This document shows positions 1,267 through 19,685 of a stretch of 19,685 bases of DNA, in pieces. The stretch is taken from IMG/VR virus record IMGVR_UViG_2695420380_000016; one strand, written 5' to 3'. How positions within the stretch are numbered: position 1 is the first letter of the stretch; each line of letters starts with the position of its first letter. The position numbers were made by a program, and so were the translations under genes. The notes below the pieces were generated by a model. The model was given only the letters and a program-made list of their open reading frames with translations. It made no database searches and had not been told where the DNA came from. The DNA is from a virus (lineage: Duplodnaviria > Heunggongvirae > Uroviricota > Caudoviricetes).

Positions 1267-1542
1267 TGTGGTGCTTTTTGTGGGAGTCATCCACTTACGC
1301 ACTTTGTTTTGCTATGCCAGCAGTTAGCTTCTGCTGTAAAACTATTCATGCAGCAAACCTGCACTTCACCACAATGGTTAGCATACTTTTCCTGATTAAG
1401 TTATTGCCAAATATGCTGGCCATTGTTTCATGTATTGGACCTCCTTACTATTTATTAAAGAGATCCAATATTCACCACTCTGTCTGTATCTCCACTCAGG
1501 CATCAGCCTTCTTCGTTATCGTATACAGACAAACTATGAATT

Positions 1543-1758
1543 TTAATCAGTAATGATGACATTTGCTGCTGCTGGACCTTTAGCACCACTCTCTACAGAG
1601 AAGGTAACCTTTTGTCCTTCAAATAAGGTTCGATAATTATCATTCTGAATCGCAGAAAAATGCACAAACACATCTTTACTACCATCAACAGGAGAAATAA
1701 AGCCAAAACCTTTATCAGCGTTAAACCATTTTACTAAACCAGTCATTTTATTTGACAT
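1543..1758 (-). CDS. cspB: cold shock protein CspB (CspA family)
   Basis: 71-aa product [71 protein letters not shown] carries the cold-shock-domain RNP motifs KGFGFI and VFVHF. Closest to remembered E. coli CspB. SD AAGGA lies upstream. Confidence 0.9.
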
Positions 1759-1960
1759 TCTACATTCCTTAACTTGAGCCTTTCGGCATAAATGGCTTGT
1801 ATAACAGAAACGACTTCGTACTTAATTGGAGAGACTCAAAGAAGGAATAAGTGAATAACACCTGAAATGAGAACTGCTTTAGTAAACTACTTCGTATATC
1901 GTCTGTTCTTCAAACCGACGCAATCATTAACGCATAGTTGAACATATGAAGCAATGTTTA
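1759..1960 (-). promoter_or_regulatory. cspB promoter and long 5' UTR region (inferred)
   Basis: About 300 bp AT-rich divergent intergenic region between cspB and cspF. CspA-family genes are known to have long regulatory 5' UTRs. Exact promoter elements not mapped here. Confidence 0.35.
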
Positions 1961-8086: not shown

Positions 8087-8425
8087 CTATTTCCCTGAAT
8101 TTACGACGAAACTGTTCGAGCGGGCTGAAGCACTCATGCTCATAGCCTTCGCGGAGGTAGATAACCCGTTGTGTTTCCGGTTCCCAACGAATGACTCTGA
8201 CGGGTACTCCGTAGTGATCTTTGAACCAGCGGTTAACTTGTCGCAAAGGACTGTCTCCTTCTGCCGGTTGAAATCACCCACAGCCCACTCAGCAAAGCTG
8301 TGGGTTACAATTTCCCTGTCACCTGGTACATTTACTGCATAGCAATACTCCACCTTCGCTTTTCCACCCGGTACAGGAAGCGCAATCAGTTGCGAGCGAC
8401 GGTAGTGTGTTGTTAAACTGTTCAT
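8087..8425 (-). CDS. hypothetical protein (early operon, between CII-like and O-like genes)
   Basis: 112-aa ORF with ATGA start overlap with the upstream gene; ends 10 nt before the O-like start. An antisense 90-aa ORF (8070..8342) overlaps it and the C-terminus is low-complexity, so the call is tentative. Confidence 0.4.
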
Positions 8426-9036
8426 GCGTTAGTTTCTCCACAACCAGAAGCAATCGACGCCACGACGCCCGGAGCTGCACACTCGCGGGCGTCATTACTT
8501 TCTGAAACGCAAAAAATTTTGTAGACAAGTGCTGCATGCTCCTGCAGCTTCGAAATTGAGAGGTACAGCTCGTCGTTAATTGCTGTCTTCTCATGCGGTT
8601 CCACTACACCGTCTTCGATTGCCGAACGAATCTGTTTTGAATAACTGCCGATCTGTTCAATGACTTCCAGTAAACGCTGGTTAATATCGGCATTGTCCAC
8701 ATCCTCGACGTCAGGAAGAGACACAAAGACGCCATTTGCAGACTGCGCCACAGCGTCAGCAATGAAGTGAGTGCCACCAGCACGTTGTAAAATCATTGCC
8801 CATCCCAGCGGGAAAATCTGATCGCCATCGGCACGAAGGCGGTTAAATAATGCGTTCTCTGTTACATCCAGCCAGTCAGCTGCTTCAGCGTAACCACCCG
8901 GCAACGCTGCGATAGTTTTTCTGACAGCTTTCACGTACCACTCAGGCTGTTTTTCTACTTTCCAGTGATACTTACCCACGGTTAGCCTCATCGTTCTGTG
9001 GTTTCTGTTAATCGATTTATCCATTAGATTTTTCAT
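8422..9036 (-). CDS. CII-like / CP76-type phage regulatory protein (start uncertain)
   Basis: Positioned immediately after the cro-like gene. Length and position fit lambdoid CII-like/CP76 regulators. Track ORF extends to 9093, overlapping cro by 76 nt; internal Met codons at 9036 and 9024 are more plausible starts. None has a clear SD. Confidence 0.5.
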
Positions 9037-9217
9037 AAAGCTCAGGTTTAAATGGCAACCGTCCGCAAGTTCTATATGCTGCTTCTGCTGCACGTCCTTT
9101 TGGAATTAACTGGCCCGGACGGTTTCGCCACTGATAAACGGCCTCAGTTGTTATGCCGAAAAAAGCAGCAACTTTCTCAATACTGCCGAAGTAGCTTTCG
9201 ATATCGTCAGTTGTCAT
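9017..9217 (-). CDS. Cro-like repressor, DicC type
   Basis: 66 aa: ...[56 protein letters not shown] resembles remembered DicC (YFGS..KLAQAAGI....Y.W......P.GRA). Divergent from the repressor gene. SD GGAGGG upstream. Confidence 0.7.
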   Translation of the reverse strand: MTTDDIESYFGSIEKVAAFFGITTEAVYQWRNRPGQLIPKGRAAEAAYRTCGRLPFKPELYEKSNG

Positions 9218-9315
9218 ACGCCCTCCAAAACTAAGTTTTATTAGATGTTAATTATCAATCTATCTTAGGTCAATAAAAACTAAGATTACTTAGTAATTTA
9301 AGAAATGGTGCTCCT
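9218..9315. promoter_or_regulatory. immunity-region operator/promoter (OR-like; divergent cro-like and cI promoters)
   Basis: 98-bp AT-rich divergent intergenic region. Contains palindrome AAAAC-TAA-GTTTT (9227-9239) and inverted repeat CTAAG-ATTA-CTTAG (9279-9292). Candidate cro promoter on the minus strand: TTGACC-N17-TAACAT. Confidence 0.6.
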
Positions 9316-9942
9316 ATGGAAACGGTTGGTCAGCGTATAAAAGCTCTGAGAAGGGTTACCAGAACGTCCCAGAAAGAATTGGGTAAATTTTGTGGGGTAA
9401 GTGACGTTGCTGTGGGGTACTGGGAAAAAGACATCAATGTCCCTGGCGGGGAAGCACTTTCGAAATTAGCGAAGTTCTTTAATACGTCAATAGATTACAT
9501 TCTTTATGGTGCTGAGTTTGAAGGCAAACTAGTCACAAACATGCGCAGAGTTCCTGTAATTTCGTGGGTTCAGGCTGGGCAGTTTACTGAGTGCAGGGCA
9601 GCAGAAGTGTTTAGTGAAGTGGACAAGTGGGTAGATACATCTTTAAAGATTGGTGATAACTCATTTGCATTAGAAGTTAAAGGCGACTCCATGACTAATC
9701 CTAATGGCCTCCCAACAATACCAGAAGGTGCAACAGTGATTGTAGATCCTGATGCAGAACCTCGTCATGGAAAAATAGTCATTGCTCGACTTGATGGAAC
9801 GAACGAAGCTACAGTAAAAAAATTAGTCATCGATGGTCCTCAAAAGTTTTTAGTGCCATTAAATCCACGGTATCCCAACATCCCAATCAATGGTAATTGC
9901 CTGATCATTGGTGTAGTCAAAGGAGTTCAATACGAACTCTAG
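9316..9942 (+). CDS. CI-type prophage repressor (HTH_XRE N-terminus, S24 LexA-like peptidase C-terminus)
   Basis: 208 aa. N-terminal HTH (QKELGKFCGVSDVAVGYWEKD). Ala-Gly autocleavage site (VQAGQF). Catalytic Ser in GDSM and Lys in TVKKLV, as in lambda CI and LexA. Confidence 0.9.
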   Translation: METVGQRIKALRRVTRTSQKELGKFCGVSDVAVGYWEKDINVPGGEALSKLAKFFNTSIDYILYGAEFEGKLVTNMRRVPVISWVQAGQFTECRAAEVFSEVDKWVDTSLKIGDNSFALEVKGDSMTNPNGLPTIPEGATVIVDPDAEPRHGKIVIARLDGTNEATVKKLVIDGPQKFLVPLNPRYPNIPINGNCLIIGVVKGVQYEL

Positions 9943-9964
9943 TACCTCCCTTCTCTAACCAAGG

Positions 9965-9997
9965 CACCAAACTAAGAAAAGTTTGGTGTTTCCTCTT
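9965..9997 (+). terminator. hairpin downstream of cI (candidate terminator; also carries the operator-like motif)
   Basis: CACCAAAC-taagaaaa-GTTTGGTG followed by TTTCCTCTT. The 8-bp stem contains AAACTAAG. Confidence 0.4.
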
Positions 9998-10105
9998 GCC
10001 TTAAAAACTAAGTTAAGTTAGATTTAATATCAAAGATAACGAACAGGCAGGACGCCCACAAAGTAGCCTCCTGGGGCAAATGAAGTCCAGGATGATTCGT
10101 TAGCA

Positions 10106-10131
10106 ACAAAAAAGCGCCCTATAGGACGCTT
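10106..10131 (-). terminator. intrinsic terminator for the minus-strand 173-aa gene
   Basis: Minus strand reads GCGTCCTATAGGGCGC followed by TTTTTTGTTGC: 6-bp stem with one G-U pair and a U6 tract, about 42 nt after the stop at 10173. Confidence 0.55.
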
Positions 10132-10172
10132 CGATCTTTAACAATCTGGGTATCATCCAACCAATGCAAGAT

Positions 10173-10694
10173 TTAAGGAATCCAAGGCGAATTCAGATCT
10201 CGCCCCGACTCACGTAATGATCTTGGTCGTTCGTACATCGGATTTTTTTCCATAAGAAATTTATTTTCACAGTGAAGGCAACGGCTTGTAAGAAAATGAG
10301 AAGTTTTACCTACTGGAAGCGGATGAAGTATCGATTTTATATTTTTGGAATAACAAAGTGGGCACAGATGCACAGTTATTTCTTTTCCACTCACAATTTC
10401 ATTTTTAGAGTAAACAAAAGCACCAGAGTCAAGCTGATCAAGGACATATCCTTCTACCTTGGCACAAAAATCTTCAAACTCTGCAATTTTTGCTTTGAGA
10501 TGCATCACCTCTTCATCACGAAGGCGGATCGCATCGCCAAGAGAGAAGCATTCTGCCTGAAGCGTGATTAGTTTGTTCTGGAGTTCAATGGTTGCAGCTT
10601 TAACTTCTGCATCCGTTTTCGCGTCATTAATAACCTTAGCAAGACCGGCAGTCTCCTTTATAGCAGCCATAGCCGCAGACAGTTCAGCTATCAC
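10173..10694 (-). CDS. hypothetical coiled-coil / zinc-ribbon protein (moron between cI and the early operon)
   Basis: 173-aa ORF on the strand opposite to both neighbours. Markedly AT-rich compared with flanks (by eye). N-terminal heptad-like helix (ATIELQNKLITLQAECFSLGDAIRLRDEEVMHLKAKIAEFEDF). C-terminal CPLC...CLHC. Own terminator. Start is GTG at 10694 with no clear SD; ATG 10673 is an alternative. Confidence 0.55.
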   Translation of the reverse strand: MIAELSAAMAAIKETAGLAKVINDAKTDAEVKAATIELQNKLITLQAECFSLGDAIRLRDEEVMHLKAKIAEFEDFCAKVEGYVLDQLDSGAFVYSKNEIVSGKEITVHLCPLCYSKNIKSILHPLPVGKTSHFLTSRCLHCENKFLMEKNPMYERPRSLRESGRDLNSPWIP

Positions 10695-10981
10695 GTTGAA
10701 TACTCAGCTAGTTGTTGGGGGTATCCAGATTAACCAAATCCTTGTTGTTGGGGAATAACCAGGTCCACCTCGCCTGATGTGGCTAAAAGCAGGCACATAA
10801 CAGCTAAGTATTTTCAACCAGAGAGAATCCTTAGCGTTGTGGTGAATGCGGCTCAGCGCACGCGGGTTAAGGTTGAGGCTGACAGTCGACCTTCTGTGGA
10901 TACCCACCCGTCTGGTGTACAACCTTCGCCAGGCACCGGGAGGCACCCGGCACCACAACTTTATGCTGTGTGTAGTCTTGG

Positions 10982-11033
10982 CGGTACCAGCTTGTACCCT
11001 TGCTTCCGGCTGGTACCGTACTTTTTACAAAAC
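10982..11033 (+). terminator. strong stem-loop plus T-run in the early-operon leader (terminator and/or 3' end of a small RNA)
   Basis: CGGTACCAGC (10982-10991) pairs perfectly with GCTGGTACCG (11009-11018) around a 17-nt loop, followed by TACTTTTTAC. Confidence 0.4.
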
Positions 11034-11163
11034 AGAGAAGAGCATCATCGGACGACGGGCTCATAACCCAATCCATCCGGGCGGCTGCCACCGCAGGTGT
11101 TCTTCTCTGTTTTGTGGAGAAACCAACCGACCTTGCAGGGTCGATATGATGAGGAGCAGCAAA

Positions 11164-11526
11164 ATGGCTAGCGAACGCAGTACTGATGTGCAGGCATTTA
11201 TCGGGGAGCTGGACGGCGGCGTATTTGAAACCAAAATCGGCGCTGTTCTCAGTGAAGTCGCTTCCGGTGTGATGAACACGAAAACCAAAGGTAAGGTCTC
11301 GCTCAACCTGGAAATCGAACCGTTTGATGAGAACCGTGTGAAAATCAAACACAAACTCTCATATGTTCGCCCGACTAACCGCGGGAAAATTTCCGAAGAA
11401 GACACCACCGAAACGCCGATGTATGTCAATCGCGGTGGTCGCCTGACTATTCTGCAGGAAGACCAGGGACAATTACTGACTCTTGCCGGTGAACCTGACG
11501 GAAAACTCCGCGCAGCAGGTCGTTAA
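11164..11526 (+). CDS. YfdP-like hypothetical protein (120 aa)
   Basis: Internal ATG at 11164 is preceded by GAGGAG at ideal spacing. The upstream in-frame extension of the track ORF (from 10846) has no RBS and lies in stop-poor GC-rich sequence. The 120/274/178/120-aa size series matches remembered CPS-53 YfdP/Q/R/S. Confidence 0.6.
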   Translation: MASERSTDVQAFIGELDGGVFETKIGAVLSEVASGVMNTKTKGKVSLNLEIEPFDENRVKIKHKLSYVRPTNRGKISEEDTTETPMYVNRGGRLTILQEDQGQLLTLAGEPDGKLRAAGR

Positions 11527-14451: not shown

Positions 14452-17400
14452 TCACACGCTGCGCCTTCGAGAATATTCATTTAATCGCTGATAACGAACA
14501 TCTTGCTCCAGTTGTGGAGCAGCTTGAACAATTTGAAGCAAGCATTGCCCCAACTCTCGAGGCCCCCAGTGTTGTTCGGCAATCACGGCATTCAGCAGGG
14601 ATAGAGCGTCCGCAGGATATCGGCTGCAAATATCTGATTCTAGCAAAAGGCGAACGTCGTAGCTAAGGTGTTCGAGCGGTTGCAGCCAGTCCTGCACCAC
14701 TGCCAAAGCCGCCGGAAATTCACCTCGGGCAGCAATCACCATACGAGTCAACGATTCGGATATGCGTGGGGTGGCCAAGTTGCGGGACTTTGGCCAAACC
14801 TGTTGCCAAAATGGCTGGACACGATTTTTCCAATACTCCTCGCGCTGATCGCCCGCACCTTCAAGTGCCTGGTATAACGCCTGCGCGGCTACCTCCAGAC
14901 CTTCTTGTGGAAGAGCACTAATTGCCGTTCGGAACTCCTCCACGGTATATCCCTCGGTAGGGCCCAGAGCTGCATAAGTCAGGAAAGTAGCGAATTGCTG
15001 CCGGTGCTCGCCAAGATCAGAATAGTGATTGGCGCTCTCCAAAAAATCTGACTTGAAAGCTATCAGCAACGGTTCATACAGGCGTGGCGACCAGAGGAAG
15101 CCTTCCCACACAGCTTTTGCTTCGACGGGATTACTCCAAGCAAACAAGGGCAATAGATACTGTTCGGTCCAAGGTCGATCTACGCGAAAAAATGCGATCA
15201 GCCGCGACCCCAGCAACACCCGACCATGGCGGAATAGCTCTATCTGTACATTACACAATTTGGTGAAAAGTGTTTTCAATTCAACAGGAAGCAAATCATT
15301 GTCATTCGGGTTCTGTTTGAACCATAGGGTGATCAGTGATTGCGTGACATGCCCAATGGGATGATTGATCGCCGTAGAAACAGGATCATAGGTCTCAATT
15401 CCGTTTCGAATGGTGCTAGACTCTGGGCTTGTTTCTATCATCAGAACCCGACGACAAAGGGCCAGTAGAATCTCCTCGTGGCAGAGGATGGTCTTCGAAG
15501 CCTCCTCCATCCACCAAGTGACAGCGTGGGAAATCTCCTGAAGTACTGCGTCAGGCATGTCAAGCACCAACGGTGCGGCGTACCGCCACGAACGCAAAAT
15601 CATCCCTGGTTCAGCCCAAGTCTGCAGAGCTTCACGCCACCGACCAACAGGCCACACATCATCTTGTGATAGTTTACTTAACGCATACAGACTGTGAAAA
15701 AAGCGCGTACGGCAAACATCACTCCAAGTGTCCTCATAGAAAGGCAGTCTTTCTGGCATAGGCTTTGCGAGCCATTGCACTAATTCCTGCCACTTACGGG
15801 GCGCAATGTCGACATCTATACTCTCCTCGAAGCCTGGATCACCGGTTCCGCTCATCCAGTGAGAGAATTCATCACGCTCGTTGGTTGCCAGTTGCCATTT
15901 TGGGTATGCTGTGGATATTTCCGTCAAACGTGTAGCCGCAGACTCTCCCAAAACAAGGCCCGCTCCCCTGAGCTTCGCTAGACACAACCAGACGGAATGA
16001 GCCACCAAATAATGCCACCTGTCTGCTTCCAAATTATCCTCGTACATCTCGCGCGGAGGCCCTGCCAAGATAGCAGTTTCCAGACGCTCTTGTGCAATTC
16101 CTGTCAGATGTCGTCCCTGCAAAACAAACAGTCTGAATACCTCTCGCCTAGTATCCGTGGCCCACAACCACCATGAACCGTCCTCTAACAACCAATTAAC
16201 CCACCGCTCAGGTGGTATGCAGTTGTCTTGGCTTGCGGCAAACAGTGCCAGACGTTTGAAGGTGGGATATGGCAACTCAAACCAATTCTGAGCAATGCGC
16301 GTGGCCTGATCGCTGTCTTTGGATCGAACGGCTAACCATGAATCCCGAAGTAATTCAATCAGGCTCACCCAATCGCGGAACCCCCGGTTCTGCCAGTGCG
16401 GAGTGATGGACGGCAAATCCCAATGCGAGCGGTCGTGACGATCGTCGGACTCTCCCAACTCCCGCAACAAGTCCAGTGCATCACGCAACAACTGCTGAAA
16501 ATCTTCCAACAGGTATGGCAAGGACGATTTCCATGACTCGTCAGCAAGGTCGAACAGGGTTGAACGTACGTAATCAGCAGTCAGCACCAGCTCCCAATCC
16601 ACCAATTGCTTGATTCGCAAGGGTTCATCAGTGCTGCTCGAATCGTCTTCACTATAGCGAAACGGCCGCCTCAACATAACCTTGGGAGAAAGCAACTCGC
16701 GTAACTCCAAGCGCAATGTAGTCGTCAAGCCTTCATTCTTTAAGCGGTTTTGCCAACGATACAAATCCAGGTTCTGCAATGGCGATTTCACACGACCACT
16801 AAGCAGAAGCCGCCATAAAGTAGACATAGGTGGACCAGGAATAGCCAGGGGGGAATGCAAGAGAATTTCATCTAACTCAGAAGTCTTACGCTCCCGCATC
16901 AGTGCTGCTAAGCGATCTAGTTCGCTCTCAATCAGAAACATCCAACGGTCGTGTATTTGTCCGCCGCGTTCAGCAATCCATATGATCAACCTAGGGTCGC
17001 CCAGATAACGAACTAGCCAACGGGCTATATGGGACATTACGTCATCCCATTTGCTAGCACTGACACATCCAGAAACCAGCGACATCTGCGGGGCCAGCTC
17101 ATAGGGCGCAGGACGCTGAACCAGACTGAATCGGAGTTTCGGGTCAATTTCGACATGCGGAGATACACAAAAGCGTGGCAGATCGCTGTATTTAAATCGT
17201 TCGTCCGAGAAAGCTTTCAATAACCAATCCAGCGGCGGTGCAGGATTGAGTTCCGCAAAGCGTTTTGCTGGTAAACCTGATTTATCTGACAAGGCCCACA
17301 ACATCCGACCAACGAAATCGTCCTGACGAGTGCTGTCCTGCGGGCGGGCCAGAGCATGTTTGACGACTATAGCCTCTTTGCCCTGTATACCATCTCGATA

Positions 17401-18279
17401 AGTATCTGCCCAAGCGTGCAACGTTTGATGCAGCACTGAATGATCAGTGGAGCCCGCCGGTACGGTGTAAAGGATAGGAGTGACCCCTTTGGCCTCCCAC
17501 TCGATGGCTTTCCGGTGCTCCTGCCCCGGCTCACACTCCCCCAGTGCCCATACTTGTGGTGTGACTTCACCGAGCCTCCGATCTGCTGCAAGCGCATCCA
17601 TCATGTAGCGCAGTACCGGGTCGTTGATGCTGTAGCCAACGAAGCAGACCACATAGTTACGAAATAACTCACTCACAAAGCGAGCTGCCCAACGCTCAGT
17701 GAGATAAGCCAAGCCAAAGTCACCGCTGGTAACAACCAGACGATTCAGGGCAGTATCATCCGCCTTTTCCGGTAACAGCCCATGCAGGTATACAAGTCCA
17801 TCCCAGCGGCTGTTTTTTGGAATTGGCAGCATCGGCGCTACATAGGCCTGAAAAGCCTGGCCTGTACGTTTAGCTGCCACATGAAAGAGACGGTCAAAGT
17901 TGGTAGTGACCAATCGAAGGGCACCCTCGCGGCTACGGGCTAAACGTAACAGCGCCGCCTGAGTATCAATAGCGCCCCTACGACGGAGCTTTGGCTTAAG
18001 GGCTTTTTCCAACGCGCGTCGGACGGCTATACGCTGCCCTGGTAAGCGCCGTTCCAGCAAATCTAATGTGCCGTCAAATTGCCCACGCTCGAAAACCTCA
18101 CGCTCAATTTCTGAAAGTGTTGTTCCGTTCCTCTGGTAAATTAGTTCTACCAACCCTTTGAAACCAGGTAAACCAGCAGGGTAGGAAATGCCTGCTCCAC
18201 AGAAGAACACAACGCGCCCTTCCTCGTGCGCCTGCAAAAGCTCATCAGGAATATCAGGGCCGTTGGTAATGAATTGCAT
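14452..18279 (-). CDS. SIR2-like domain fused to a large helical C-terminal domain (1275 aa); candidate DSR-like antiphage NADase
   Basis: N-terminus carries SIR2_2-type motifs in order: VVFFCGAGISYPAGLPGFKGL (glycine-rich NAD loop), VTTNFDRLFH (catalytic Asn), VYLHGLL (catalytic His about 40 residues later), FVGYSINDPVL. The remaining 950 or so residues are helical and Trp/Leu-rich with no Walker A motif. Strong RBS GGAGGAAAAGGA before the ATG at 18279. Candidate -10 TATAAT on the minus strand at 18342-18347. Confidence 0.8.
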   Translation of the reverse strand: MQFITNGPDIPDELLQAHEEGRVVFFCGAGISYPAGLPGFKGLVELIYQRNGTTLSEIEREVFERGQFDGTLDLLERRLPGQRIAVRRALEKALKPKLRRRGAIDTQAALLRLARSREGALRLVTTNFDRLFHVAAKRTGQAFQAYVAPMLPIPKNSRWDGLVYLHGLLPEKADDTALNRLVVTSGDFGLAYLTERWAARFVSELFRNYVVCFVGYSINDPVLRYMMDALAADRRLGEVTPQVWALGECEPGQEHRKAIEWEAKGVTPILYTVPAGSTDHSVLHQTLHAWADTYRDGIQGKEAIVVKHALARPQDSTRQDDFVGRMLWALSDKSGLPAKRFAELNPAPPLDWLLKAFSDERFKYSDLPRFCVSPHVEIDPKLRFSLVQRPAPYELAPQMSLVSGCVSASKWDDVMSHIARWLVRYLGDPRLIIWIAERGGQIHDRWMFLIESELDRLAALMRERKTSELDEILLHSPLAIPGPPMSTLWRLLLSGRVKSPLQNLDLYRWQNRLKNEGLTTTLRLELRELLSPKVMLRRPFRYSEDDSSSTDEPLRIKQLVDWELVLTADYVRSTLFDLADESWKSSLPYLLEDFQQLLRDALDLLRELGESDDRHDRSHWDLPSITPHWQNRGFRDWVSLIELLRDSWLAVRSKDSDQATRIAQNWFELPYPTFKRLALFAASQDNCIPPERWVNWLLEDGSWWLWATDTRREVFRLFVLQGRHLTGIAQERLETAILAGPPREMYEDNLEADRWHYLVAHSVWLCLAKLRGAGLVLGESAATRLTEISTAYPKWQLATNERDEFSHWMSGTGDPGFEESIDVDIAPRKWQELVQWLAKPMPERLPFYEDTWSDVCRTRFFHSLYALSKLSQDDVWPVGRWREALQTWAEPGMILRSWRYAAPLVLDMPDAVLQEISHAVTWWMEEASKTILCHEEILLALCRRVLMIETSPESSTIRNGIETYDPVSTAINHPIGHVTQSLITLWFKQNPNDNDLLPVELKTLFTKLCNVQIELFRHGRVLLGSRLIAFFRVDRPWTEQYLLPLFAWSNPVEAKAVWEGFLWSPRLYEPLLIAFKSDFLESANHYSDLGEHRQQFATFLTYAALGPTEGYTVEEFRTAISALPQEGLEVAAQALYQALEGAGDQREEYWKNRVQPFWQQVWPKSRNLATPRISESLTRMVIAARGEFPAALAVVQDWLQPLEHLSYDVRLLLESDICSRYPADALSLLNAVIAEQHWGPRELGQCLLQIVQAAPQLEQDVRYQRLNEYSRRRSV

Positions 18280-18461: not shown

Positions 18462-19685
18462 TCATTTCGAGCCTGAACGAGTACAAGTAACAATCGATTC
18501 AACTCTCTCCCACCATGCCTGGTAGGCTTTACGCTGTTCTTCTAGATAATCACTCTTGTCATAAACTTGCCATACACCTGGCAGTTTATGACCGAGCATT
18601 ATTTCAGCAATATGAGGCGCAGTAAGATCAGAAAAGTTTGTTCGTGCTGTTCGTCTCAAATCATGAAGAGACCAATGAGGAAATTGATACCCCAAACGCC
18701 GCCATGCGTACTGCATTAAATTGTAAGGCAGCGACTGCAATGATGTCCGACCAACTGGTTCCCTGCTTCCTTCCTTAGTAAAAAGCATATCGGAACCGTT
18801 GTTCATAGAGATAACGTATTTTATAAGCTCTTCAACCGGTTCAATAATGGGCCGCTTTAGCGGTTCGCCTGTTATATCCCCTGTCTTATGTCGTTCTGGT
18901 GGTACAGTCCATATTTTATTAATGAAATCAAAATCGTCCACCTTGGCAGTAATTAGCTCTGAACTACGGCAACCAAAATGCAGCAATAGTTTAATGAAGG
19001 CCCGGTATTTAGGAACCATTCGAGAACCATCGATCGCAGCATAAAGGATTTTAATTTCATCATGTGTCAGAAACCGTTTCTTCTGACCTTTACGGATATC
19101 CATATCTTTACCCGTGATATCCGACAGCGGGCGAGTTTCAATGAGCTTTCTCTTATACGCCCAGACATGGGCCTGCTTTGCGTTAATTAGCAATCGGTCT
19201 GCTATTGCTGGAGTCTTAGTGCTAAGAGGCTCCAGGACTTCTAACCAATCATGCAATGTAGCTGCATCGTGAGGGATATTCCCGATTTTAGAGAACAGGT
19301 GCAGCTCAAACGAGCGGAGTATCTGTTCAGAACCTTTTTTATTTTTTACACAATATGCTTCATACCAAGCACGGATCACAGATTCTACCGTCATGGCTTC
19401 AGTAGCTTTACGTTTTTCTGCCAGCTTGACCAATCGTGGATTGCGGTTTGACTCGAGTTCACCACGAAGACGGATAACTTCTTCTCTGGCCTCTTTTAGT
19501 CCAGTTGCCGGGTAAGTTCCGATATCAAGACGCTCACCTTTCCCCGCCCACTGATAACGATATTGGAACACTACGCGACCTTTCGGTGATACTCTAACAG
19601 ACAGACCATCACGATCGGATTTAACCAAAACCTTATCACGTTCCTTTCCAACAACTGAACGCAACCACGCATCAGACAGCGCCAT
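18462..19685 (-). CDS. tyrosine integrase, P4-like (DUF4102 arm-binding N-terminus plus catalytic domain)
   Basis: 407 aa. N-terminus MALSDAWLRSVVGKERDKVLVKSDRDGLSVRVSPKGRVVFQYRYQWAGKGERLDIGTYP fits the P4-family arm-binding pattern. C-terminus has catalytic-domain motifs (HDLRRTARTN..., GHKLPGVWQVYD with the Tyr). The ATG is the last three bases of the window, so upstream signals and att are outside. Confidence 0.85.
   Translation of the reverse strand: MALSDAWLRSVVGKERDKVLVKSDRDGLSVRVSPKGRVVFQYRYQWAGKGERLDIGTYPATGLKEAREEVIRLRGELESNRNPRLVKLAEKRKATEAMTVESVIRAWYEAYCVKNKKGSEQILRSFELHLFSKIGNIPHDAATLHDWLEVLEPLSTKTPAIADRLLINAKQAHVWAYKRKLIETRPLSDITGKDMDIRKGQKKRFLTHDEIKILYAAIDGSRMVPKYRAFIKLLLHFGCRSSELITAKVDDFDFINKIWTVPPERHKTGDITGEPLKRPIIEPVEELIKYVISMNNGSDMLFTKEGSREPVGRTSLQSLPYNLMQYAWRRLGYQFPHWSLHDLRRTARTNFSDLTAPHIAEIMLGHKLPGVWQVYDKSDYLEEQRKAYQAWWERVESIVTCTRSGSK

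What the first reader, a model, noticed from the sequence alone, without database searches (positions are those of the whole stretch)
10106..10850. Opposite-strand 173-aa coiled-coil / Cys-pair ORF in the cI-to-early-operon slot: possible exclusion or abortive-infection moron
The gene lies in the position lambda uses for rexAB and where other prophages carry superinfection-exclusion genes. It is transcribed against both neighbours, is AT-rich relative to flanks, and has its own intrinsic terminator. The product has a predicted N-terminal coiled coil and a C-terminal CPLC...CLHC zinc-ribbon-like element. I do not recognise the family. The start codon is unclear (GTG without SD).
Basis: partly seen in the sequence, partly recalled or inferred. 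Interest (0 to 1): 0.6.

Follow-up and report, generated by a model that had tools for sequence, protein, structure and literature searches.

The report
Rip1-type pore-forming anti-phage gene
The 173-codon gene is real and belongs to the recently described Rip1 family of prophage defence proteins, which kill an infected cell by forming a membrane pore around a ring-shaped protein of the invading phage; this copy is an untested new member.

Summary
The ORF at 10173-10694 (-) is a genuine gene under purifying selection (dN/dS 0.15-0.45). It is identical to a PGAP "hypothetical protein" found in 53 of 5,426 complete E. coli genomes.

It belongs to the Rip1 (ring interacting pore 1) family:
- It falls in phrog_1244, the same family as phage HK446 Rip1 and Pseudomonas DMS3 gp25.
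- A profile of its homologues hits PDB 9oox (HK446 Rip1 bound to T6 small terminase) at E=2.8e-20.
- The AlphaFold model (pLDDT 91) matches only 9oox chains in the PDB.
- Y83 and all four zinc-ribbon cysteines, the only family-wide invariant positions, are present.

Rip1 (Patel et al., Nature 2026) is a prophage-expressed abortive-infection protein. It assembles on portal or small-terminase rings and perforates the inner membrane.

One correction: the slot is lambda's sieB slot (opposite strand, inside the early-left operon), not the rexAB slot.

The ~110 nt upstream are homologous to the sieB leader and P22 sas antisense-RNA region. That element precedes many unrelated cargo genes. It suggests, untested, an antisense route by which the phage silences its own Rip1 during lytic growth.

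Verdict: new member of a known kind; activity here is untested.

The parts
10173..10694 (-). rip1-like CDS, 173 aa, GTG start. N-terminal helices at residues 2-24 and 28-79. C-terminal beta-rich C4 zinc-ribbon domain with C111, C114, C139 and C142.
   Evidence: ORF list. phrog_1244 E=2.7e-52. Profile against PDB 9oox_L E=2.8e-20. BLASTP against HK446 Rip1: 25% identity, E=1e-13. AF2 pLDDT 91. Foldseek 9oox_L/M probability 1.00. dN/dS 0.15-0.45.
10111..10132 (-). Intrinsic terminator of the rip1-like gene, 41 nt past its stop codon.
   Evidence: Terminator scan: 9-pair stem, 4-nt loop, T-rich tail. Palindrome I5.
10695..10735 (-). 5' leader and weak sieB-type promoter -10 region. GTTAAT at 10734-10729 aligns with TATAAT in relatives and with the annotated P22 sieB promoter / RNA start site. 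The leader carries the second CCCC(A/T)ACA motif and a weak GAG(U) Shine-Dalgarno.
   Evidence: Alignment of upstream regions. P22virB-3 record annotates 'promoter, sieB RNA start site' at the homologous place. Consensus scans find only 7/12 matches here. The transcription start is inferred, not mapped.
10683..10800 (+). sas-like antisense element, homologous to the P22 sas RNA that is antisense to the sieB leader. The invariant 3' core CCACC..GCCTGA.GTGG.TAAAAG.CAGGC lies at 10765-10794. It is preceded by two GGGG-containing segments.
   Evidence: Alignment to the sequenced P22 sas RNA from PMC13397905 table 2. The core is invariant in 12 of 12 aligned loci, including lambda sieB and HK446 rip1. 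RNAalifold in this orientation gives one hairpin with 8 of 9 pairs covarying and an invariant 3' hairpin. Single-sequence folding of this copy is no better than shuffles, z about 0.
9970..10030 (+). OL-like cI operators (9970-9985 and 10006-10023) overlapping a candidate early-left promoter (TTAAAA-N18-TAATAT, 10001-10030). Its transcript would run antisense through the rip1-like gene and the sas-like element.
   Evidence: The motif AACTAAG-N5-TTAG gives 12 matches against 4.2 expected. The exact and near-exact copies occur only at the cI-cro intergenic region (9229, 9278) and here. Repeat families D1/D2/D4. Relaxed promoter scan. Promoter activity and direction are inferred.

Best explanation
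The gene encodes a Rip1-family protein, a single-protein sensor and effector for abortive infection.

Proposed mechanism:
1. It is made at a low level from its own weak, sieB-type promoter in the lysogen. On its own it is soluble and harmless.
2. A superinfecting phage reaches late gene expression and makes a ring-shaped oligomer, either small terminase or portal.
3. The C-terminal zinc-ribbon domain binds the outside of that ring.
4. The ring templates a roughly 12-subunit Rip1 collar.
5. The N-terminal helices insert together into the inner membrane as a pore.
6. The cell is permeabilised before progeny mature, so the infection aborts.

Shown here: family membership by sequence, fold, invariant residues, gene context and leader. 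Inferred from the characterised HK446 and Pseudomonas Rip1 proteins: the trigger, the stoichiometry, the pore and the abortive outcome.

Secondary inference: when the resident prophage is induced, transcription from the cI-controlled early-left promoter runs antisense across the gene and its leader. This region is homologous to P22 sas and could shut down Rip1 synthesis, so that the phage's own packaging proteins do not trigger it.
For: Sequence:
- phrog_1244 is hit at E=2.7e-52 by this ORF, 2.2e-53 by HK446 Rip1 and 3.5e-61 by DMS3 gp25.
- The homologue profile hits PDB 9oox_L 'ring interacting pore 1' at E=2.8e-20 over residues 5-150. The next hit has E=0.46.
- Pairwise BLASTP gives 25% identity over 146 aa, E=1e-13.

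Fold:
- The AF2 model has pLDDT 91.
- The only PDB matches at E<=1e-3 are 9oox_L and 9oox_M, both with probability 1.00 and target-normalised TM 0.52 (9oox_L) and 0.71 (9oox_M).

Invariant residues:
- Y83 and the four cysteines are the only invariant positions across 25 distant members. All are present here.

Context:
- The gene is on the opposite strand with its own terminator.
- It occupies the same slot, convergent with the repressor and facing the early-left genes, in 5 of 6 other enterobacterial prophages that have unrelated repressors.
- HK446 rip1 lies in the lambda sieB slot and carries the same upstream element.
- DMS3 gp25 is an opposite-strand moron in the Tab slot of Casadabanvirus (PMC10884400).

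Family mechanism:
- PMC13434031 section 5, PMC12908700 and the title of PDB entry 9oox.

Antisense inference:
- Operators and a promoter candidate lie upstream on the + strand.
- The leader is homologous to P22 sas.
- G.U pairs outnumber C.A mismatches in the antisense orientation.
Against: - Identity to the characterised proteins is only 25-30%, so trigger specificity, or even activity, could differ.
- No experiment exists on this protein.
- I could not read the primary paper. The mechanism is taken from a review, a meeting report and the PDB entry title.
- A hydrophobic-moment test did not single out an amphipathic N-terminal helix beyond shuffles. Its only result is that the most hydrophobic 19-mer is the first helix, as in HK446 Rip1, and is below transmembrane level.
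- The promoter is weak by consensus and the transcription start is unmapped.
- For the antisense idea: this copy's sas-like RNA folds no better than shuffles.
- A strong + strand hairpin with a U-tract at about 10985-11027 may stop early-left transcripts.
- No Esc-like conserved internal start exists: M64 is present in only about half of the homologues.
Confidence: 0.75

Rival explanations
1. It is a Rip1 homologue by descent but has diverged in function. For example, it might only sequester terminase or portal rings (an assembly inhibitor like Tab), or act on a host ring-shaped protein, without forming a lethal pore.
For: Only 25% identity to HK446 Rip1. In the Foldseek match the query-normalised TM is only 0.39-0.55, partly because of helix orientation. 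The enterobacterial clade has an extra invariant C49 in helix 2 and a longer C-terminal tail that are absent from HK446 Rip1. The hydrophobic-moment test was inconclusive.
Against: The alignment is full-length with no domain loss. The N-terminal helices are conserved in length and in position of hydrophobicity. The slot and leader are the same as for the functional HK446 gene. The review states that relatives are widespread in prophages.
Confidence: 0.15
2. It is a zinc-ribbon nucleic-acid-binding or regulatory protein of the prophage, for example one that modulates early-left transcription, not a defence gene.
For: C4 zinc ribbons are common in DNA- and RNA-binding proteins. There is a weak profile hit to the zinc ribbon of vaccinia RNA polymerase 30 kDa subunit, E=0.46. 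The gene lies in the immunity region.
Against: No significant match to any regulator family in Pfam. There is significant sequence and fold homology to Rip1 only. Homologues occur in quite different genome positions, next to tail genes in Serratia and between the terminase genes in DMS3. That fits a self-contained moron, not a regulator of a local operon.
Confidence: 0.05
3. The ORF is a chance or decaying reading frame antisense to the early-left transcript, and the real function of the region is RNA-level only.
For: GTG start with a weak Shine-Dalgarno. No strong sigma-70 promoter. A conserved antisense element abuts it.
Against: dN/dS is 0.15-0.45 over 168-172 codons. The frame is intact in 53 of 53 close E. 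coli copies, all annotated as CDS. There are thousands of full-length homologues, a confident fold and a solved structure of a homologue.
Confidence: 0.02

Closest known systems
Rip1 of Escherichia phage HK446 (gp37, YP_007111990; PDB 9oox, in complex with T6 small terminase)
   Same: Same PHROG family (phrog_1244). The alignment is full-length, with the same helix-helix-zinc-ribbon architecture and all invariant residues. Both are opposite-strand genes inside the early-left operon of a lambdoid phage, preceded by the same conserved sieB/sas-type upstream element.
   Different: Only 25% identity. HK446 rip1 lies after N and before a ral-like gene. Here there is no N gene, and the gene directly follows cI and its operators. 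This clade has an invariant C49 and a longer C-terminal tail. The start is GTG rather than ATG. The leader is 56% identical to P22 sas, against 74% for HK446.
Pseudomonas aeruginosa prophage Rip1 (Patel et al. 2026) and its homologue DMS3 gp25 / D3112 orf25
   Same: Same family: 30% identity to DMS3 gp25, with tblastn E=1e-12. Both are opposite-strand morons with their own transcription unit, in a known defence-moron slot.
   Different: [quoted passage not shown] There is no sieB/sas-type leader. Escape mutations are reported in the portal for Pseudomonas phages, and in small terminase for E. coli phages.
SieB / Esc / sas superinfection-exclusion module of P22 and lambda
   Same: Same genomic slot and orientation. 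The upstream promoter/leader DNA is homologous, including the region that encodes the sas antisense RNA. Both are prophage-expressed abortive-type exclusion functions.
   Different: The proteins are unrelated. SieB is an integral membrane protein of about 190 aa. ORF173 has no transmembrane segment and carries a zinc ribbon. No conserved internal Esc-like start is present.
RexAB of phage lambda
   Same: Prophage-expressed abortive infection that acts through loss of membrane integrity. It lies in the neighbourhood of the repressor gene.
   Different: RexAB is a two-protein system, co-transcribed with cI and located between cI and OL/PL. It has no sequence similarity to this protein. Here the gene is downstream of the operators and on the opposite strand.
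Tab / anti-Tab of Pseudomonas phage JBD26
   Same: Small single-protein prophage defence that targets a late morphogenesis protein. It is a minus-strand moron with its own promoter, in the slot where DMS3 carries its Rip1 homologue.
   Different: Tab is an unrelated 83-aa protein. It blocks tail assembly rather than forming a pore, and its self-immunity comes from a dedicated anti-Tab protein.

Membership tests
Rip1 (ring interacting pore 1) family / phrog_1244 | Significant full-length sequence similarity to an experimentally characterised Rip1 | tested here: met
   Homologue profile against PDB 9oox_L: E=2.8e-20, residues 5-150 aligned to 15-159. BLASTP: 25% identity, E=1e-13. ORF173, HK446 Rip1 and DMS3 gp25 all hit phrog_1244 at E<=1e-52.
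Rip1 (ring interacting pore 1) family / phrog_1244 | Rip1 fold: long N-terminal helices followed by a compact C-terminal ring-binding domain | tested here: met
   AF2 model has pLDDT 91, helices 2-24 and 28-79, then a beta domain. Foldseek against the PDB finds only 9oox_L (E=3.3e-7) and 9oox_M (E=1.8e-6), both with probability 1.00, TMt 0.52 (9oox_L) and 0.71 (9oox_M). The lower query-normalised TM is expected if the monomer model and the pore state differ in helix orientation; that explanation is an inference.
Rip1 (ring interacting pore 1) family / phrog_1244 | Family-invariant residues: four cysteines of the C4 zinc ribbon and one tyrosine | tested here: met
   Y83, C111, C114, C139 and C142 are the only invariant columns in 25 distant members, including HK446 Rip1 and DMS3 gp25. 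All are present.
Rip1 (ring interacting pore 1) family / phrog_1244 | Amphipathic, membrane-inserting N-terminal helices with no constitutive transmembrane segment | tested here: inconclusive
   The most hydrophobic 19-mer is helix 1 in both ORF173 (KD 1.06) and HK446 Rip1 (KD 1.28), below transmembrane level. The hydrophobic moment is not above shuffles in either protein.
Rip1 (ring interacting pore 1) family / phrog_1244 | Prophage-encoded, independently transcribed moron | tested here: met
   Opposite strand to both neighbours, with its own terminator. Prophage context in the window and in seven other loci. Expression itself was not measured.
Rip1 (ring interacting pore 1) family / phrog_1244 | Anti-phage activity triggered by oligomeric portal or small terminase; roughly 12-mer pore; abortive infection; non-toxic alone | not testable with these tools
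   Known only for the HK446 and Pseudomonas proteins, from a review, a meeting report and the PDB title. Needs plating assays, co-expression and structural work.
SieB superinfection-exclusion protein | Sequence similarity to lambda or P22 SieB; integral membrane protein | tested here: not met
   All-against-all BLASTP places the cargo proteins in separate clusters from both SieB types. No hydrophobic segment of transmembrane strength.
SieB slot / sas antisense module (regulatory DNA, not the protein) | Homologous upstream element containing the sas 3' core, in the opposite-strand position within the early-left operon | tested here: met
   The core is invariant in 12 of 12 aligned loci, including lambda sieB. 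The window aligns to the sequenced P22 sas RNA with 63 of 112 aligned positions identical, and the 3' core (apart from its variable positions) retained. In P22, sas runs into the start of the gene (ral) that follows the sieB slot, just as the element here abuts the next feature.
SieB slot / sas antisense module (regulatory DNA, not the protein) | An antisense RNA is made on infection or induction and switches translation of the cargo | not testable with these tools
   Only the operators and a promoter candidate on the + strand were found. Covariation supports one hairpin. Single-sequence folding gives z about 0.
RexAB | Two genes co-transcribed with cI, located between cI and OL; RexA/RexB homology | tested here: not met
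   A single gene, on the opposite strand, downstream of the operators. No RexA or RexB family hit in Pfam or PADLOC.

The most novel reading that the evidence does not exclude
The lambdoid sieB slot may be a plug-in cassette. It would have a fixed module (weak promoter plus sas-type antisense RNA region) and interchangeable abortive-infection cargo: SieB of two types, Rip1, phrog_5286 proteins, small membrane proteins and others. In this reading the antisense RNA made from the derepressed early-left operon is a general self-immunity switch that turns off whatever lethal cargo sits there. It would explain how a Rip1-carrying phage can express its own terminase and portal without killing its host early. 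It would also predict that related superinfecting phages could disarm a resident Rip1 in trans.
Probability: 0.3. Interest if true: 0.6.

Novelty: new member of a known kind. Interest (0 to 1): 0.4.

Why it matters
This result gives a name and a testable mechanism to a protein still annotated 'hypothetical' in about 1% of complete E. coli genomes and in many other Enterobacterales. It adds a divergent branch (25% identity) to a defence family whose sensor and effector are one small protein.

It also places the gene correctly in prophage architecture. The window's prophage carries at least two defence genes: this Rip1 homologue in the sieB slot and a Dsr1 sirtuin next to the integrase.

The shared sieB/sas-type leader in front of unrelated cargo genes, if functional, offers a simple way to find new small defence genes. 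It also points to how prophages avoid their own abortive-infection proteins.

Tried and rejected
- Pfam gave only sub-threshold coiled-coil noise.
- PADLOC-DB 2023 has no model for the family. It finds nothing significant for this ORF and nothing at all for HK446 Rip1.
- Rfam at gathering thresholds finds nothing in the region.
- Consensus sigma-70 scans find no good promoter for the gene. The best candidates match 7 of 12 positions. The promoter was placed only by homology to the annotated P22 sieB promoter.
- The hydrophobic-moment analysis did not discriminate.
- Single-sequence folding of the sas-like region and of the mRNA leader is no better than shuffles.
- I considered an Esc-like internal start. 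It would give a truncated, ring-binding but pore-less inhibitor starting at M64, preceded by GAGG. I rejected it because M64 is present in only about half of the homologues and the spacing is poor.
- A DksA/TraR-like reading (coiled coil plus zinc finger) was considered from memory and dropped once the Rip1 homology appeared.
- The primary Rip1 paper (doi 10.1038/s41586-025-10075-1) is not in the held library, and searches for a preprint failed. What is said here about the family's mechanism is second-hand.
- A literature search for the sieB slot as a defence hotspot found nothing specific. This is not proof that it is undescribed.

Full report
**1. The observation**

The window carries a lambdoid immunity region. 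A cro-like gene (9017-9217, -) and a CII/CP76-type gene (8422-9093, -) run leftward. A LexA/S24-type repressor (9316-9942, +) runs rightward.

The ORF in question is 10173-10694 on the minus strand. It encodes 173 aa from a GTG start, with an in-frame TGA 12 nt upstream. NCBI's pipeline annotates the identical CDS as a hypothetical protein in E. coli FDAARGOS_1258.

- A minus-strand intrinsic terminator (9-pair stem, T-run) lies at 10132-10111.
- AlphaFold predicts two long N-terminal helices (2-24 and 28-79) and a beta-rich C-terminal domain, with mean pLDDT 91.
- GC content is 41.4%, against 48.3% for the window. The neighbouring repressor gene is 42.6%, so the composition contrast is with the right flank only.

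**2. It is a real gene**

- Seven enterobacterial homologues start at the same aligned codon, five with GTG and two with ATG. They share the N-terminus MIAELSAAM.
- dN/dS against five orthologues of 54-88% amino-acid identity is 0.15-0.45.
- The allele occurs once per genome in 54 of 5,426 complete E. coli genomes. In 53 it is at least 99% identical and is called as an intact CDS.
- A profile of 25 homologues finds 2,503 cluster representatives at E<=1e-3 and 768 at E<=1e-10.

**3. What family**

- Pfam and the 2023 PADLOC library have nothing significant.
- PHROGs places it in phrog_1244, 'unknown function', at E=2.7e-52.
- The homologue profile searched against all PDB chains gives one significant hit. 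It is 9oox chain L, 'ring interacting pore 1 (Rip1)', E=2.8e-20, aligned almost end to end. The next hit has E=0.46.
- The entry is the cryo-EM structure of Escherichia phage HK446 Rip1 bound to phage T6 small terminase.
- Pairwise identity to HK446 Rip1 is 25%, E=1e-13.
- The AlphaFold model matches only 9oox chains in the PDB (probability 1.00 for both, E=3.3e-7 and 1.8e-6).
- HK446 Rip1 and Pseudomonas phage DMS3 gp25 hit the same PHROG at E=2e-53 and E=3.5e-61.
- In an alignment of 25 distant members, the only invariant columns are one tyrosine and the four cysteines. All are present here.

**4. What the family does**

This section is second-hand, because the primary paper could not be read.

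A 2026 review (PMC13434031, section 5) summarises Patel et al., Nature 651:1060:
- Rip1 is a prophage protein that is non-toxic alone.
- Escape mutations map to the portal in Pseudomonas phages and to small terminase in E. coli phages.
- Twelve Rip1 monomers surround an 11-mer terminase ring.
- The C-terminal half contacts the ring, and the N-terminal amphipathic helices form a pore.
- The complex releases dye from liposomes, and cells are killed before phage maturation.
- Relatives are widespread in proteobacterial prophages.

A meeting report agrees with this account. By homology I assign the same mechanism to this protein, with the caveat of 25-30% identity.

**5. Gene context**

[quoted passage not shown] JBD26 carries the Tab defence moron in that same slot.

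In five of six other enterobacterial prophages examined, the homologue is convergent with the repressor gene and opposite to the early-left genes (kilR, dicB, xis, recE-like). This holds although the repressors belong to different families. In a Serratia prophage it sits next to tail sheath genes instead. This is the behaviour of a self-contained moron.

**6. The slot is sieB's, not rexAB's**

- The repressor's operators (AACTAAG-N5-TTAG) occur as exact or near-exact copies in only two places. One is the cI-cro intergenic region (9229, 9278). The other is immediately downstream of cI (9970, 10006). There are 12 matches in the window against 4.2 expected.
- A candidate + strand promoter, TTAAAA-N18-TAATAT, overlaps the second pair at 10001-10030.
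- The gene therefore lies downstream of the early-left operator/promoter and on the opposite strand.
- That is exactly where lambda has sieB, between N and ral on the opposite strand. HK446 has rip1 in the same place.

**7. A shared leader**

The ~110 nt upstream of the ORF are conserved at the DNA level in front of:
- Rip1 homologues;
- HK446 rip1;
- lambda sieB and a Hafnia phage sieB;
- unrelated genes of phages SfIV and SfII.

The core GCCTG(T)CTTTTA.CCAC.TCAGGC..GGTGG is invariant. The 123 nt upstream of lambda sieB are 92.7% identical in P22, although the sieB genes themselves are not conserved at the DNA level.

A P22 record annotates the sieB promoter and RNA start inside this element.

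The complementary strand is the sas antisense RNA of P22. Reviews describe sas as switching translation of sieB. Its sequence was recently recovered by RNA-seq. Identity to it is:
- window + strand 10683-10800: 56%, with the 3' core retained;
- HK446: 74%.

A consensus fold of 31 such elements in the antisense orientation gives one hairpin with a GGGG loop in which 8 of 9 pairs covary, plus an invariant 3' hairpin. G.U pairs are more frequent than C.A mismatches in that orientation. Against this, single-sequence folding of the window copy is no better than shuffles.

**8. Variable cargo**

I took the longest ORF starting just downstream in 110 of them. These fall into:
- Rip1-like: 14;
- P22-type SieB: 13;
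- lambda-type SieB: 4;
- SfIV_36-like (phrog_5286): 10;
- a 106-aa protein that looks like a two-span membrane protein by eye: 11;
- a 149-164-aa hydrophobic protein: 6;
- many singletons.

The ORF picking is crude, and some short ORFs may be spurious. Even so, the element clearly fronts several unrelated genes.

The flanks of the window region are present in 2,876 E. coli genomes, but this allele is in only 54.

**9. Inference on self-immunity**

A Rip1-carrying phage must make its own terminase and portal. In this window, derepressed early-left transcription would read antisense through the whole gene and its leader. The gene's terminator hairpin is strand-specific: it has a G.U pair on the minus strand and a C.A mismatch on the plus strand, by my reading of the sequence. 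By analogy with P22 sas, this could silence Rip1 during the phage's own lytic growth.

This is untested. Two observations count against a simple version. There is no conserved Esc-like internal start. A strong + strand hairpin with a U-tract at about 10985-11027 might stop early-left transcripts.

**10. Verdict**

The gene is a new, divergent and still unannotated member of a known family. The sieB/sas-type cassette context is the most interesting residue and deserves an experiment.

Noticed in passing
window 10806-11028 (+): A GC-rich (55%) stretch directly after the sas-like element matches Rfam STnc100 (Gammaproteobacterial sRNA) over the full model. The score is 38.5 bits, below the gathering score of 47, with E about 7e-7. 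It ends in a long hairpin with a U-tract at about 10985-11027. The wider region 10815-11160 folds far better than shuffles (z = -3.65). It is 95-97% identical in phages SfII, SfIV, mEp460 and Kati, and about 77% identical in Salmonella ST64B.
   Followed up: partly
window 10846-11526 (+): A 226-aa ORF spans the STnc100-like region and yfdP. SfIV annotates the equivalent as one CDS (SfIV_34). PGAP instead calls a frameshifted pseudogene plus a 120-aa YfdP. The N-terminal half is Arg/Cys-rich, has no Pfam hit and overlaps the structured RNA, so it is probably not coding.
   Followed up: partly
window 11027-11115 (+): A 25-nt-arm inverted repeat (84% complementary, 39 nt between the arms) lies just upstream of the yfdP start. 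It is followed by a short hairpin (11126-11145) next to the start codon. Its function is unknown; it may be a translational or antitermination element of the early-left operon.
   Followed up: no
window 14452-18279 (-): A 1,275-aa ORF is a full-length Dsr1 (defence-associated sirtuin). PADLOC PDLC02183 scores 2,735 bits over 1-1275, and Pfam finds a SIR2_2 domain. It sits next to the integrase (18462-19685, -). It is a second defence gene in the same prophage, and it is absent from the otherwise near-identical prophage of E. coli FDAARGOS_1258.
   Followed up: partly
window 1476-1919 (-): A full-length match to the Rfam cspA thermoregulator (161 bits, gathering score 78) indicates a prophage-borne cold-shock gene with its long 5' UTR. 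It lies in an AT-rich segment (35-38% GC).
   Followed up: no
window 9229-9295 and 9970-10023: There are four copies of a 16-bp near-palindromic operator, AACTAAG-N5-TTAG. Two lie between cro and cI and two just past the cI stop codon. The hairpin-like sequence at 9963-9990 that looks like a cI terminator overlaps one of them.
   Followed up: partly
L064:4031-4162 and downstream (IMG/VR contig IMGVR_UViG_2675903675_000003): A 136-aa protein in the same slot behind the same leader did not cluster with Rip1 by BLASTP. It hits phrog_1244 at E=2.9e-22 and has the helix plus CxxC...CxxC layout, so it is a more distant Rip1 relative.
   Followed up: partly
L016:2956-3390 (Shigella phage SfIV gene 36) and about 10 IMG/VR loci; L028 and about 10 further loci: Unrelated cargo sits behind the same sieB/sas-type leader. 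One is a 144-aa protein of phrog_5286 (unknown function, no PADLOC hit). Another is a 106-aa protein that looks like a two-span membrane protein by eye. Their position makes them candidate exclusion genes.
   Followed up: partly
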